Part shown: piece after piece, positions 20,909 through 36,076 of the stretch
How the letters are laid out: every line of letters begins with the position of its first letter
Position numbering within the stretch: position 1 is the first letter of the stretch
Source of the DNA: Octopus vulgaris
Lineage: Eukaryota
Reading direction: 5' to 3'
NCBI GenBank assembly: GCA_951406725.2
Contig: OX597817.1
Coordinates: 79,422,001-79,486,000 of the forward strand
DNA length: 64,000 nt
Position numbers and translations under genes: made by a program
The notes under the pieces: model-generated
What the model was told of the DNA's origin: nothing
Database searches by the model: none
What the model saw: only the letters and a program-made list of their open reading frames with translations

Positions 20909-20990
<82 letters not shown>

Positions 20991-21265
20991 TGGCTAATCT
21001 GGCAAAATGACCATTCCGAAATATAACAATATATATATGTGTATGTATGTATATGTATATATTTAAGTGTGTCTTTCTGTGTATGCTCACCCCTGCATTG
21101 CTTGACAACCGATGTTGGTGTGATTACGTCCTCATAAGTTAGTGGTTCAGCAAAAGAGACCGATAGAATAAGTACTAGGCTTAAAAAGAATAAGTCCTGG
21201 GGTCGATTTATTCGACTAAAGGCGGTACTCCAGCATGGCCACAGTCAAATGTCTGCAGCAAATAA
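20769..21265 (+). mobile_element. SINE family B copy
   Basis: Same head and tail as 5838-6320, internal (CA)n/(TA)n. Confidence 0.8.
20989..21028 (+). mobile_element. Solitary 40-bp terminus of the 23-kb palindromic element family
   Basis: ttggctaatctggcaaaatgaccattccgaaatataaca nearly identical to 23501-23539; sits in (TA)n. Confidence 0.8.
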
Positions 21266-21442: not shown

Positions 21443-22355
21443 CAGGGTGCGCTCGGTAAATTGTCGCCATTTTATATTTTAATTTTCGCGCATGTGCATT
21501 GTTTGTCTTTGATTTTGTCAACTGCACAGTATAGTAGGGTCAATTGGGCACCATCTGTGAGAAAAACAGTACCATGTCGCAATTCACTCTGCCACAAACT
21601 TGGAAACGACATGCTATACTGCTTGGCATTCGCGATGGAAGCTCCAATACGAACATTTCAGAGTGTTCGTGTGTAAATCTGAGGACAGTGCAGAGTATTC
21701 GGAAAGAGTCGAATCAATCTATTGGATATTACGAAAGTACGGTAGCTCGGAAACTCACTCTGATCGTTCTGATAAGAAAAGAAATCCGGAATTTGGTGGT
21801 AAGAACCAGACCATGACTGACAACAATCCCTCCAAGTCAAGCAGGTCCATCGCCAGGGACATGGGAGCGTCTGAGTTTCTTATCAGGCAGGTAGTGCATG
21901 AAGACATTCGGTATACCTCATACAAGATGAGAATGAACCAATTTTTATCCCAAGCCATTAAGGACAAGAGGTAAGACCACTCTACGAAGCTTTTGAACAA
22001 ACTCAAGCATCCCATCCAACCGAACATGCTTTGATTTTTCGCAGACGAGAAAAATTTCTGCCAGGATCAAATGGTGAACACACAGAATAATCCTTGGCTT
22101 GCCGTTACCCCAAAATATGTACTGAGAGGGATAAAAATCAAACATCCATTCAACATCATGGAGTTTGGAGTGATCAGTAGTGATGGTGACGTTATACCAC
22201 CATTCTTCATACCACAGCCTCACACTCAATACAGAGGCCTATACCAAGTGCTGGCAGGAGGTAGGACTGTCCTGGCTCAAGAGGGTGACTGCTGGAAGGC
22301 CCTATGTCTAGCAACAGGACTCTGCACCATGCCTCATAGCAAGAGAACCCAGTCA
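21443..22355 (+). pseudogene. Tc1/mariner (maT/DD37D-like) transposon, decayed
   Basis: TA-cagggtg start; frameshifted transposase with SSRSIARDMG, FFADEKNF, MEFGVISSDG, QQDSAPC motifs. Confidence 0.85.
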
Positions 22356-22545: not shown

Positions 22546-22587
22546 ATAAAACATGTACAATATATATATATATATTTATATACATAG

Positions 22588-22628
<41 letters not shown>

Positions 22629-22680
22629 TATATATATATATAGTTATATATATATATATATAGTGTTATATATATATATA

Positions 22681-23068
22681 TGGAGGCGCAATGGCCCAGT
22701 GGTTAGGGCAGCGGACCCGCGGTCGTAGGATCGCGGTTTCGATTCCCAGATCGGGCGTTGTGAGTGTTTATTGAGCGAAAACACCTAAAGCTCCACGTGG
22801 CTCCGGCAGGGGATGGTGGTGATCCCTGCTGTACTCTTTCACTACAACTTTCTCTCACTCTTACTTCCTGTTTCTGTTGTACCTGTATTTCAAAGGACCG
22901 GCCTTGTCACTCTCTGTGTCACGCTGAATCACCCTAAGAACTACGTTATGGGTACACGTGTCTGTGGAGTGCTCAGCCACTTACACGTTAATTTCACGAG
23001 CAGGCTGTTTCGTTGATCGGATCAACCGGAACCCTCGTCGTCGTAACCGACGGAGTGCTTCCATTCCA
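22681..23068 (+). mobile_element. Young tRNA-derived SINE (family C)
   Basis: A/B boxes (tggcccagtggttagg, gtttcgattccc); highly similar to 38683-39069. Confidence 0.85.
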
Positions 23069-23199
23069 TATATATATATATAGTTATATTTCGGAATGGT
23101 CATAATGCCAGTTTAGCCAATAAAAACACACGCACTATATATTTGGTGTTATTTTGCTTCAGTGTTATTTATTTTTTGCATTAATCTTAATCTTATTTC

Positions 23200-23243
23200 G
23201 GCCAGAGTTCTTTCGTCACACTCCTGTGACCGCATCAGTGGTC
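23200..23243 (-). ncRNA. Hammerhead ribozyme motif (left arm)
   Basis: Exact reverse complement of 23378-23421. Confidence 0.65.
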
Positions 23244-23377
23244 CTTTGTTTTCTTCTTTCTTATTTGTGTCTCTCCTTACTAACCGTCAGCCATGCGCAA
23301 ATGAAGACATACAATAGAAATACAAAATGGCTGACGGTTAGTAAGGAGAGACACAAATAAGAAAGAAGAAAACAAAG

Positions 23378-23421
23378 GACCACTGATGCGGTCACAGGAG
23401 TGTGACGAAAGAACTCTGGCC
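23378..23421 (+). ncRNA. Hammerhead ribozyme motif, A9>C variant (right arm)
   Basis: gaCCA CUGAUGC G GUCACA-ggag-UGUGAC GAAA G-aa-C UC^ UGGcc. Confidence 0.65.
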
Positions 23422-24329
23422 GAAATAAGATTAAGATTAATGCAAAAAATAAATAACACTGAAGCAAAATAACACCAAATATATAGTGCGTGTGTTTTTA
23501 TTGGCTAAACTGGCAATATGACCATTCCGAAATATAACAATATCTGTGTGTGTGTGTGTGTATACATACAGGTATGTGTGTGTGCGTGCGTGTTTGTGTG
23601 TGGGTGTGTGTATCGTGGACTCTCCTGTCGTTGATGACAGATGAAGAGTCTGCAATTTCTCGGTAAACGACATGCACAGGTGGTGTGTTTATAATAATCA
23701 AATATTTGTGTAGCTCGTCAGCTCATTCCTTCCATCAAATCGGCGTTGTCTGAATACATACACGGTGTGTCATTGCCTGGTGGGGATTTGATTTCAGAAT
23801 AACGTGAGATCAAGTGTTTTGCTCAAGAACACAATGCTCCACTCAGTTGGGAAATCGAAAGCATGATCTTGCTATCGTGTATACAAAACCCCAATCACTA
23901 GGCCACGACCCCCTATAAATATATATTTACATACACACACACACACAAACACTCACACATAGACAAACATAAATAAATATACATACACATACATATATGT
24001 ATAGAAAAACATATACATATATACATTTACAAATACATATAATTGTATAAACTCGCATCCACACATACATGTAAGGTGCAAGTATGGCTGTAAAGGAAAG
24101 TTTGCAATCAAGAGATCCCGAGGTTTGATACAATGGCATGACATATTTTCCTATAGCCTTGGGTCAGCTCTCTTATCCTGATGATAAAACTAATTTTATA
24201 ACGCATTTTATACACTGAGATATAGAAACAAAATTATTATTATTGGCTAGTAAAGTATATCATAGTTCAGAAGAGCAGCGGTTATCTGTCTTGCGTTACA
24301 TAATGGAAATTACAGTAAATTACATAATC

Positions 24330-24900
24330 AATATTGAATGTCCAATCGTCAGACACATCTAACCGTTATACAACTGTTACGTTATGAGAAAAAGGCAATT
24401 CATGTTCGATAAAACTGGGAGAACCATGTGGTCCAGTTAAAGCGCTTGCTAAAGAAATTCAAGCACCTCGAAGAGCCCGATAAGTTCTGGCTCTTCTCTG
24501 ATGAAACAAACGTTCAATATTAAAGTACGATTAGGAGAAATACGAACAGGAGAAATGACAGATGGCTCTGCGTCAGCTCTACTAAAGTCCTCACTTTTAT
24601 GCGCACCAGTGTCCATCTTCTGCAATGATTTCATGGGTCTTGACAAACGAGTGTCATGTCATGTCCACTCATTTTTTTCTCGCAAGGTCTTAGGGTTAAT
24701 GCGGCAGCCTATCTCGAGATATTGGAGACGGTTGTCAAGCTCTGGATCAAGTGGGCTGTTTAGGACGGGTCGTATGTATTCCAGCAAGACGCTGCTCCTT
24801 CTCATATAAGCTGCACAAAACAAGTCCGAAAATTTTCACGATCATGTCACCCCGAGCATTTGGTCATCTAGCTCTCTTGATTTTGGGCCTATATTTCAAA
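24330..24900 (+). pseudogene. Second decayed Tc1/mariner (DD37D-like) transposase fragment
   Basis: FWLFSDE and VFQQDAAPSH motifs with frameshifts. Confidence 0.7.
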
Positions 24901-33581: not shown

Positions 33582-33720
33582 TATATATATATGTGTATAT
33601 ATGTATGTTGTATTTCAGGATGGTCAGTTTTTGTTTTTGCCAAATAAACATACGCACTCTCTATTTGTTCTTCCCTCGTTTATTATTGTTCTTATTTTTT
33701 TTGTTTTAACTAATGTCCAT

Positions 33721-33765
33721 TGTCCGGAAATCTTTCGTCACACATCTGTGACCTCTTCAGCGACA
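33721..33765 (-). ncRNA. Hammerhead ribozyme motif, canonical core
   Basis: UGUCG CUGAAGA G GUCACA-gaug-UGUGAC GAAA GAUU UC^ CGgACA. Confidence 0.75.
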
Positions 33766-34284
33766 CTTTTCGTTTTCGTGTGTGGTCTTGCTCCACTTAC
33801 TCCAATTTGTTCTTCTAAGATGTGTATTCTTATGTGTGCATGCATTTGCATCCGCGCGTGTGTGTGTGAGTGTATGCTTGGGTGTGTGTGTGTGATTGTT
33901 CTTAGCAGCAATATGGCCTTCCCCTCAGCTCCATCCTCTCAACCCATTGTGCAGCTACTGTCCTAAGACCCGAAGATTCGGTACCGTTTTTGTATCTCTC
34001 TGTTTGTGTTCGCACACGCTGTTGCCATCGTGGTAGTTGTTATTGTTGTTGTTGTTGTTATTTTTATCGTTGTCGCCGCCTCTGCTGCTGTCGCTGTCAT
34101 TCGTGTTGTTGATATTGTTGTGGCCGTCCGTGAAATTTCCTGTATGTGTGCTTGTGTGTGCATGGGTTCGCTTCGTATGTTGTTTGTATCCATGCCATTT
34201 ATATAGATTTATTTATTTATTTTATCTATCTATATTTCTTATATTTATCACAGGTATGTGACAAATATATCTATTTATTTACAT

Positions 34285-34668
34285 ACTCTTTCAGTCATTT
34301 GACTGCGGCCATGCTGGAGCACCGCATTTAATCGAGCGACTCGACACCGGGACTTATTCTTTTGTAAGCCCAGTGCTTATTCTATCGGTCTCTTTTGCTG
34401 AACCGCTAAGTTACGAGGACGTAAACACACCAGCATCGGTTGTCAAGCAATGCTAGGGGGACAAACACAGACACACAAACATATACACACATACATATAT
34501 ATATACGACAGGCTTCTTTCAGTTTCCGTCTACCAAATCCACTCACAAGGCATTGGTCGGCCCAGGGCTATAGCAGAAGACACTTGCCCAAGATGCCACG
34601 CAGTGGGACTGAACCCGGAACCATATGGTTGGTTAGCAAGCTACTTACCACACAGCCACTTTTGCGCC
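34285..34668 (-). mobile_element. SINE family B copy nested in the palindromic element
   Basis: Reverse complement of family B consensus. Confidence 0.8.
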
Positions 34669-34991
34669 TTTATTTATCTTTTATTTTTAGCAGTTATTTT
34701 TTATTTATCTATCTCTTTTATTGTATGTATCACAGGAAAGTGCATATATGCCTATTGTGCGTGTATTACCCTGTATGTATCTGTGTATTATTTACGATGT
34801 TTTCCCCTCTCTCTTCTCTTCACTTCTGTCTTTAGTTCATGTGGTGTGGTGGGGTGGTGGGTGTTACTGTTCCATTTGCGTTTGTTAATGAGGCTCTATC
34901 TGTCTAGTGCTATATGTGTAGCCTCTGTGGTCGAAGTGTCGTGTCAGTTGTATGCGTTGATAGACGCAAAAGCACACATGAAAACGAAAAT

Positions 34992-35036
34992 TGTCGCCGA
35001 AGAGGTCACAGAGGTGTGACGAAAGATTTCCGGAGA
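34992..35036 (+). ncRNA. Hammerhead ribozyme motif (U4>C)
   Basis: UGUCG CCGAAGA G GUCACA-gagg-UGUGAC GAAA GAUU UC^ CGgAga. Confidence 0.6.
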
Positions 35037-36076
35037 ATGGACATGAGATAGAATAAAAAAAAAAGAATAGTAATAAACGAGTGAAGAGCAAATATATTGT
35101 GCATGTGTTTATTTGGTAACAAAAAAATGACCGTCCTGAAATACAACAATATCTGTTTCAACACACGATTTCACAATAGGAAACTTGCTACACAAATTGA
35201 TAAACGAATATATATATTTATATATTTATATATATATATTCCTCCTTTTATTCTTTCTTTTAAAACTAGGTATTCAGTGGGTAGAAAATATGCGTTCAAT
35301 CTCTCCAAGGAGTGTATTGTTTGCTGATATGAGGCATTATTTTGTAATAAATCTGTTATGATAAATCCTTTTGTTTCGACAGCCTCTTTCAAAAAAAAAA
35401 CATCATCACATTCACCATATATCCCTAGTTACTGCTGTTGTCTTTGTTGTTATTTATCCCCAAATCAGTATTGAGTAATAATCAAAACTAAGATAACTTT
35501 GAAGATCTCTATAACTGCTTTCACCCTTTTGTTACCGTATTTTTGGTAACAAGCTTTGTGCTACGGACGCTGAAACTGCCAGCTCATCCTATCATAGAAG
35601 AGATGAGGTGCAACGAAACCACATAGTTCTGGCGCCCGCAGCAGACGATTCACGTTTACTAGTGATATAAATAATTGTGCCTTTATGCATTTTATGCATA
35701 ATGCGTTCATATGAAAACTTCTCTGAAAGTAAACATCGCAGTATTCGGCGTTCTAACATAACATCCACGTTAAGTTGGATATAAAGATTGTCTTTTTGTA
35801 ATAATACTGCTTCTGTTGTTTATAATTAGTTTTGTTGCACCCAGTTTCAATTGATTTTGAAAAGTGATGAAAAATATTGTAAAATAACGTTGTCATTATG
35901 AAGCTAGTGTTTGGAACAAATTAATATAATATTTTGATGGAAGGTTTTAATTTGGATCTCTATAAGACAGGAAGTCCGAATCATGGAATCAGGAGTTGTT
36001 TCAGGACGATTGGTATCGAATATGTTAATCGTATTTTATCTTTTACTGTATTTTTGTTTTTAATATAGTCGCAATT

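What the first reader, a model, noticed from the sequence alone, without database searches (positions are those of the whole stretch)
23083..23538. Almost perfect 456-bp palindrome with an outward-facing hammerhead in each arm
Seen: 212-bp arms with about one mismatch and a 32-bp spacer, no obvious TSD, microsatellite flanks. Both outer ends correspond to the 3' end of the ribozyme-sense strand. It mimics a MITE but is better explained as an inverted pLTR product of Penelope retrotransposition (inference). Transcription from either side gives a long dsRNA hairpin that would sequester the ribozyme and be a potential ADAR/Dicer substrate. Arm identity implies recent origin or arm homogenisation.
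Basis: partly seen in the sequence, partly recalled or inferred. Interest (0 to 1): 0.8.

Follow-up and report, generated by a model that had tools for sequence, protein, structure and literature searches.

The report
Double-ended Penelope retrotransposon insertion
The palindrome is a one-off, back-to-back stump of a very abundant Penelope-like jumping gene, and its relatives, which almost always pair one long end with one short end, suggest that such stumps likely form when both cut strands of the target DNA start copying the same RNA at two different points.

Summary
The palindrome is real: 212-bp arms, one mismatch, 32-bp spacer. It is not a MITE. Spacer plus right arm is continuous pseudo-LTR sequence of a Penelope-like element (PLE; intact 1312-aa ORF, RT + CX4CxxC + GIY-YIG; 5,383 exact end-motif hits), and the inversion junction is unique in the genome. 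Inverted pLTRs, a tail on one end and opposite-strand hammerhead pairs are all published, so the object is ordinary. Arm identity needs only youth. The hammerhead is degenerate (A9C, non-palindromic helix III). The family statistics are the useful part. Inverted insertions pair one tail-bearing (long) end with one tail-less (short) end in 46 of 46 typed pairs, 49 of 50 same-size palindromes and 12 of 12 older pairs. The short arm usually reaches further (32 vs 6), 8 of 45 pairs share no sequence, and stalls are coupled (p 3e-6). That fits twin priming on one RNA, not simple fold-back, and strains the published antisense self-priming model. This copy is the lone short/short exception, so fold-back remains possible for it. 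dsRNA/ADAR claims are untested.

The parts
23083..23294 (-). Left arm: inverted pLTR copy, element coordinates -192 to +19 (0 = first base of the end motif at 23519). Ends at the usual short (tail-less) site in (AT)n; carries the one private substitution (23105).
23292..23294 (.). 3-nt CAT microhomology at the inversion junction; junction unique in the genome
23295..23326 (+). 'Spacer': ordinary pLTR sequence (-224 to -193) contiguous with the right arm in other copies
23327..23547 (+). Right arm: direct pLTR copy to +28, i.e. only the first 9 nt of the roughly 60-nt tail, joined to (GT)n at TGT. This exact end is unique in the genome.
23377..23421 (+). Minimal type I hammerhead-like motif: helix I GGACCA/TGGCC, core CTGATGC (A9C), extra G before helix II, 6-bp helix II, helix III AGAACT; predicted cut after 23416
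   Evidence: sequence; definition in PMC4209133
23200..23244 (-). Mirror copy of the hammerhead-like motif in the left arm
23518..23547 (+). First ten codons of the element's long ORF (MTIPKYNNIC); the tail is the continuation of this frame in the intact tandem copy L114
23068..23082 (.). (AT)n target remnant, left flank
23548..23620 (.). (GT)n-rich target, right flank
22682..23064 (+). Unrelated high-copy SINE-like repeat sitting in the same AT microsatellite (neighbour, not part of the unit)
   Evidence: 8,319 candidates, best other copy 98%

Best explanation
The palindrome is a 5'-truncated, head-to-head insertion of the pseudo-LTR of a Neptune/Nematis-type Penelope-like retrotransposon, likely made in one event in which both nicked strands of a microsatellite target primed reverse transcription on the same element RNA and the two cDNAs were then joined through a 3-nt microhomology. 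Shown: parent element, unique junction, long/short end pairing in the family, common source of both arms, coupled arm lengths. Inferred: the endonuclease nicks both strands. One RT starts at the short site (+19 to +28, in a predicted hairpin loop) and leads; a second starts at the long site (about +70 to +83) and trails, displacing the first cDNA. Both stall at a stem (-30..-23 paired with +32..+39) or run off the RNA 5' end near -177 to -218, probably the pLTR transcription start. In this copy the second primer ended in (CA)n, so it would have paired at the UGU at +26..+28 instead of the long site, or the tail was deleted later. The hammerheads are passengers, probably weak or dead. The unit is a dead end, not a mobile palindrome.
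For: [quoted passage not shown] Pfam GIY-YIG is weak, E 0.0012. Atlas hits at 0.97 carry HTH_animal/RVT_1/GIY-YIG. Pairing: of 78 insertions at 77 loci behind the first 100 listed motif hits on contig C1, 46 are divergent pairs with both ends typed, and all 46 are long+short. So are 49 of 50 same-size palindromes (two loci shared with the first set) and 12 of 12 pairs among 30 loci of an older subfamily. Polarity in 45 pairs: short arm further in 32, long in 6, within 10 nt in 7 (p 2e-5); Spearman 0.60. In 8 of 45 the arms share no sequence. All 6 short arms stalled at -12..-24 have long arms stalled at +47..+69 (Fisher p 3e-6). Ends are identical in 12 of 30 near-symmetric palindromes, against 2.2 by permutation. 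Arms agree at 181 of 186 subfamily-diagnostic positions, against 125 expected. TSDs flank whole inverted units (L110, L095). In vitro, a PLE protein cuts and extends both strands, starts at two internal sites bounding the tail, and is a predicted dimer (PMC11167929).
Against: This copy breaks the family rule: neither end has the tail. Its right-end type pairs with a long end in all 4 other paired cases. Its left arm lies wholly within the span of the right arm, which is also what fold-back would give. In vitro, PAc showed no difference in start site between strands and no homology between primer and start site. Five of the 78 insertions have an inverted piece ending at neither site, one is ambiguous and 26 have a single arm. 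The stem is a prediction: the region folds no better than shuffles (z -1.25). The RNA 5' end was not observed. Inner-end values were read by hand from BLAST tables, and one complex locus (L106) was left out. Two RNAs from one source locus cannot be fully excluded. Reads did not span this locus.
Confidence: 0.68

Rival explanations
1. Fold-back: the first cDNA (right arm, primed at +28) stopped at -227, its 3' ATG paired with CAT 32 nt back, and it was extended over itself to make the left arm. This could hold for this copy even if not for the family.
For: The left arm is nested in the right arm's span, the junction has the required 3-nt complement, and neither arm has sequence the other could not supply. 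This is the only short/short case among 50 + 46 + 12 pairs.
Against: In the family, the tail-bearing arm is the less extended one in 32 of 45 pairs and shares nothing with its partner in 8, which fold-back of the first cDNA cannot produce. Zero-spacer palindromes centred on AT or TA would need a hairpin with no paired primer. The left end sits exactly at the usual short priming site.
Confidence: 0.17
2. Self-priming on an antisense transcript, the published model for head-to-head PLE repeats (Arkhipova et al. 2013), followed by integration of the hairpin and endonuclease trimming that leaves the tail on one end.
For: Proposed from junction palindromes and intron retention in Adineta (PMC3846280). 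It can give the majority polarity seen here (short arm further) if the hairpin is copied from its tail end.
Against: It needs overlapping arms, yet 8 of 45 pairs do not overlap. It gives one polarity, yet 6 of 45 pairs (17 of 49 in the size-selected set) have the other. Junctions are scattered over kilobases and mostly have 0-5 nt microhomology, not built-in palindromes.
Confidence: 0.08
3. A MITE or other self-propagating palindromic unit with terminal inverted repeats.
For: 50 palindromes of similar size exist, and a few zero-spacer junctions recur exactly (-199 three times, -210 four times).
Against: This junction occurs once (the one-mismatch hit L141 is unrelated sequence). Relatives have unequal ends (tail on one side only), variable centres and variable or no TSD, and all the sequence comes from a PLE pLTR.
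Confidence: 0.03
4. Assembly artefact (chimeric fold-back read).
For: No read or contig spanning the junction was shown.
Against: The arms differ by one base and have different outer flanks. The centre uses a microhomology like those of dozens of relatives, and relatives show a strict biological asymmetry and TSDs.
Confidence: 0.04

Closest known systems
Inverted 5'-truncated copy and one-sided 'tail' of endonuclease-positive PLE insertions (Craig et al. 2021, PMC8557442 Fig. 2; Arkhipova et al. 2013, PMC3846280; passages read)
   Same: Head-to-head pLTRs, tail on only one end, partial tandems, microsatellite targets that hide TSDs, tail encoding the start of the ORF.
   Different: The tail here is about 55-60 nt rather than 30-40. 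Those papers call the tail optional or frequent and explain it by endonuclease resolution or antisense self-priming; here the pairing is counted and is almost absolute. This copy lacks the tail on both arms.
PAc (Poseidon of Anolis) in vitro, Frangieh et al. 2024, PMC11167929 (main text parts 1-2 of 4 and passages read; supplements not read)
   Same: Two internal RT start sites bounding the tail near the ORF start, in an AC-rich stem-loop; AT-rich targets; both strands cut and extended; ribozyme cleavage not needed.
   Different: PAc is Penelope/Poseidon clade, without the CX2-5CxxC linker. In the text read, the paper does not connect two-strand extension to inverted insertions and found no strand difference in start site.
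Minimal type I hammerheads of metazoan PLEs, Cervera and de la Pena 2014, PMC4209133 (parts 1-2 of 4 read)
   Same: Short helix I, long helix II, extra nucleotide between 9 and 10.1, G10.1-C11.1, tiny helix III. Pairs of motifs 100-700 bp apart on opposite strands are already noted in Schistosoma.
   Different: A9 is C in 81 of the first 100 listed copies, including the intact element, and helix III is not palindromic.
Twin priming of LINE-1 (Ostertag and Kazazian 2001; recalled, not read)
   Same: The second target strand primes internally on the same RNA, the cDNAs are joined by short microhomology, and the result is a 5' inversion within one TSD.
   Different: L1 arms do not overlap and the second site is random. 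Here the second site is fixed about 55-60 nt from the first, arms usually overlap to give palindromes, and about six in ten insertions are affected.

Membership tests
EN+ Penelope-like element (canonical, C-terminal EN) | Single ORF with PLE-type RT followed by GIY-YIG endonuclease | tested here: met
   L114 1312-aa frame with RT motifs and C-terminal VVYSIRC...TYVGET; Pfam GIY-YIG E 0.0012, below the curated cut-off, and no Pfam hit on the whole protein; Atlas neighbours at 0.97 with RVT_1, HTH_animal, GIY-YIG
EN+ Penelope-like element (canonical, C-terminal EN) | pLTR from partial tandem, containing a hammerhead motif and the ORF start, with optional tail | tested here: met
   L114 tandem unit 4,598 bp; window arms map to its pLTR
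EN+ Penelope-like element (canonical, C-terminal EN) | CCHH motif with two cysteines between GIY and YIG | tested here: met
   Two Cys between VVY and YVG (IRCIEGRC) and downstream His residues, read from the translation; definition
Neptune or Nematis clade | CX2-5CxxC linker between RT and EN; (TA)n target bias | tested here: met
   CTDNYCTVC; most ends run into (TA)n
Neptune (versus Nematis) | RT phylogeny with named reference elements | not tested
   No named PLE references were held; the linker does not separate the two clades
Metazoan minimal PLE hammerhead | Helices I and II, extra nucleotide at 9/10.1, G10.1-C11.1, G12-A13-A14, NUH site | tested here: met
   Sequence, fold, alignment
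Metazoan minimal PLE hammerhead | Conserved core CUGANGA | tested here: not met
   A9 is C; of the first 100 of 4,246 hits, 81 have C, 18 A and 1 T
Metazoan minimal PLE hammerhead | Palindromic helix III/loop 3 allowing the dimeric form | tested here: not met
   AGAACU self-duplex +0.7 kcal/mol versus -6.4 for the AGAUCU variant
Metazoan minimal PLE hammerhead | Self-cleavage | not testable with these tools
   Indirect only: 55 of 58 arms that reach the site run past it and 3 end within 6 nt of it
MITE (class II) | Multi-copy unit with the same interior, TIRs at both precise ends, fixed TSD | tested here: not met
   Junction unique; relatives have unequal ends and variable centres; TSDs variable
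Non-LTR retrozyme | Head-to-tail tandem units each with a hammerhead | tested here: not met
   Arrangement is head-to-head and single; definition in bioRxiv 10.64898/2026.07.22.740005, part 1 of 5 read

The most novel reading that the evidence does not exclude
Thousands of genomic copies record the missing step of the Penelope-like transposition cycle. An RT-endonuclease pair bound to one folded RNA primes both target strands at two fixed start sites, one leading and one trailing, so the tail, the inverted pLTR and the palindromes are all products of programmed twin priming. This would replace antisense self-priming. The most recent bursts came from a subfamily whose hammerhead core had already degenerated.
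Probability: 0.55. Interest if true: 0.65.

Novelty: new member of a known kind. Interest (0 to 1): 0.42.

Why it matters
The palindrome itself is routine for Penelope-like elements. But how these elements make inverted repeats and one-sided tails is still described as undefined (PMC8557442). This family supplies counts that discriminate between models and gives sharp in vitro predictions for an existing assay: one start site per strand, both arms from one RNA, and coupled stalling at a defined stem. An intact, young source copy is at hand (L114). The data also suggest that hammerhead cleavage is dispensable for large-scale amplification in vivo. Roughly six in ten insertions create inverted repeats, a possible source of dsRNA or cruciform DNA whose host effect is untested.

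Tried and rejected
Rfam found nothing at gathering thresholds, and at E<=10 only hairpin-shaped miRNA models far below their cut-offs, which any palindrome gives. PDB sequence search gave no meaningful hit. Pfam found no RT domain. Laying two raw-read and two contig runs was inconclusive: repeat-derived pile-ups, no record spanning the locus, and no RNA run laid. The first junction script used a wrong reference and its coordinates were discarded (junction lines only); it was redone. One search's hand table gave L109b as -22; this was corrected to -12. The idea that ribozyme cleavage sets the 5' ends was rejected: 3 of 90 arm ends lie within 6 nt of the site. Arm homogenisation was rejected as unnecessary. 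The idea that L101 was a full-length element was rejected; it holds pLTR-sized pieces, one of them repeated with its flank. A same-size palindrome search for the older subfamily found none. No structure prediction of a protein dimer was obtained, so the dimer rests on PAc only. Earlier-findings look-ups by sequence, place and long word lists returned nothing.

Full report
Observation. The arms 23083-23294 and 23327-23538 are reverse complements with one mismatch around a 32-bp centre. They lie between (AT)n and (GT)n, and no duplication is visible. The window lies in a 2.8-Gb genome of 227 contigs; its repeat landscape looks cephalopod to me, which is recalled and untested. Reads did not verify this locus: no listed record spans it.

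The spacer is element sequence. Spacer plus right arm matches other loci end to end at 97-100%, so the structure is one direct copy of 256 bp (23292-23547) plus an inverted copy of part of it, joined at a CAT microhomology. The junction 18-mer occurs once exactly; the single one-mismatch hit is unrelated DNA. The exact right end is also unique.

The parent. Upstream of longer copies lie RT and GIY-YIG coding sequences. L114 holds an uninterrupted 1312-aa frame in a partial tandem with a 4,598-bp unit. It has RT motifs, a CX4CxxC linker and two cysteines inside a C-terminal GIY-YIG. These are the marks given for the Neptune and Nematis clades (PMC8557442 passages). Pfam support is weak (E 0.0012 on one fragment, none on the whole protein), but Atlas neighbours at 0.97 carry RVT_1, HTH_animal and GIY-YIG. 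The frame begins in the pLTR end, and the tail is its continuation. A 20-mer at the pLTR end has 5,383 exact matches. Below, 0 is the first base of that motif (window 23519).

Two kinds of end. Copies stop either at about +19 to +28 (short) or at about +70 to +83 (long, with tail), mostly in (TA)n. I fetched the DNA around all of the first 100 listed hits on contig C1, 77 loci in all; some have only 1.5 kb of flank. Of 78 insertions, 46 are divergent pairs with both ends typed, and all 46 are long+short. Five have an inverted piece ending at neither site, one is ambiguous and 26 have one arm. A genome-wide pattern for palindromes of this size gave 50; 49 are long+short and the exception is this copy (two loci overlap the first set). 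Among 30 of 94 loci of an older subfamily, 12 of 12 divergent pairs are long+short, two typed from the printed sequence or BLAST extent. Where the target is not a repeat, duplications of about 12, 14 and 28 bp flank the whole unit (L122, L110, L095).

One template. In 31 palindromes the two arms agree at 181 of 186 subfamily-diagnostic positions, against 125 expected, and differ from each other by 0 to 15 bases. The window's right arm equals an unlinked copy over 212 nt. Youth explains the arm identity, and no homogenisation is needed. In 45 pairs (L106 left out as complex; ends read by hand) the short arm reaches further 5' in 32, the long arm in 6, and 7 are within 10 nt. Lengths correlate (Spearman 0.60), and 8 pairs share no sequence at all. 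All 6 short arms that stop at -12 to -24 have partners that stop at +47 to +69, against 2 of the other 39 (Fisher p 3e-6). These two stops flank a predicted stem, -30..-23 with +32..+39, and the short site lies in the loop of an inner hairpin. The wider region folds no better than shuffles (z -1.25), so the stem is only a lead. Inner ends also pile up at -177 to -218 (18 of 90). Both arms end on the same base in 12 of 30 near-symmetric palindromes, against 2.2 by permutation; preference for AT/TA joints and size selection may inflate this. I read the pile-up as the RNA 5' end. Penelope of D. virilis starts transcription inside the pLTR (PMC2377424 passages). No RNA evidence was obtained here.

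Mechanism. Fold-back of the first cDNA cannot put a tail on the less extended arm or make arms that share nothing. Self-priming on antisense RNA (PMC3846280 passages) needs overlap and gives one polarity. Priming by both target strands at two fixed sites on one RNA accounts for pairing, polarity, coupling and TSDs. It matches the PAc protein, which cuts and extends both strands, starts at two sites bounding the tail and is predicted to be a dimer (PMC11167929, parts 1-2 of 4). Against it, that study saw no strand difference in start site. For this particular copy the case is weaker. Ends like its right end occur at 8 of 20 loci checked, and the 4 others with a partner have a long partner, so this copy is short/short with nested arms. 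Second priming at UGU on a (CA)n end, later loss of the tail, and fold-back all remain possible.

The ribozyme. The motif has the layout of metazoan minimal PLE hammerheads (PMC4209133 parts 1-2 of 4), but A9 is C and helix III is not self-complementary (+0.7 versus -6.4 kcal/mol). Of the first 100 of 4,246 hits, 81 have C, 18 A and 1 T, and the intact element has C. Core changes usually cost most activity (PMC3088659 passages; A9C is not named there). Of 58 arms that reach the predicted cut, 55 run past it, so uncut RNA is the usual template, as in vitro. Whether this locus is transcribed, edited or diced was not tested.

What is known. Inverted 5'-truncated copies with a tail on one end (PMC8557442 Fig. 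2 legend; PMC3846280) and hammerhead pairs 100-700 bp apart on opposite strands (PMC4209133) are published. Two earlier notes of this scan reached the same class in other genomes. I found no paper proposing twin priming for PLEs or counting the long/short pairing. The library lacks most subscription papers, I did not see Arkhipova 2006 or Evgen'ev and Arkhipova 2005, and I read no supplements, so prior statement of the idea is possible. LINE-1 twin priming is recalled.

Verdict. Real, ordinary as an object: a new member of a known kind. The family-wide pattern makes an open mechanistic question testable, which sets interest at 0.42.

Noticed in passing
window 33606-35215: A second, older divergent pair of a related PLE subfamily (about 70% identical) with canonical A9 in its hammerhead; the left end is short and the right end carries the tail, as the rule predicts.
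   Followed up: yes
window 20988-21032: A lone 45-bp short-end stub of the same family starting at about -24, one of the stall hot spots.
   Followed up: partly
window 22560-23082: The AT microsatellite upstream of the SINE has three AGTT-type interruptions that repeat the left junction of the palindrome. Either slippage copied the junction before the SINE landed, or the motif pre-existed and aided priming. The SINE's nearest copy among 40 scored is 98% identical, so the order is unresolved.
   Followed up: partly
L114 (G000:C1:59392300-59402100): Intact 1312-aa ORF in partial tandem with an inverted long arm. It has a long Asn/Ser-rich stretch between the N-terminal region and the RT, reminiscent of the N-rich inserts of Adineta Penelope. 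Its subfamily also changes the hammerhead cleavage-site C to U.
   Followed up: partly
L113:650-865: Pieces of the ORF start (+27 to +195) are captured between the two arms, showing that the template RNA extends beyond the long start site.
   Followed up: no
L142, L145, L173 and L159, L178, L182, L189: Perfect zero-spacer palindromes with identical centres recur at -199 and -210, both at AT dinucleotides.
   Followed up: partly
window 23322-23342: At the inner-end hot spot lie a YY1-like motif (likeness recalled, not tested) and an ATG followed by a possible splice donor; in D. virilis Penelope the start site lies 46 bp before an intron.
   Followed up: no
L032:508-3204 (G000:C10): An open 899-aa frame of a different PLE-like family (RT motifs and a GIY-YIG-like C-terminus by eye; no Pfam hit).
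   Followed up: no
window 21561-22350 and 24380-24860: Decayed fragments that look like a Tc1/mariner-type transposase (likeness recalled).
   Followed up: no
L095, L211, L203, L204, L129: Inverted pieces that end at neither start site; L095 has a 28-bp target duplication around the whole unit.
   Followed up: partly
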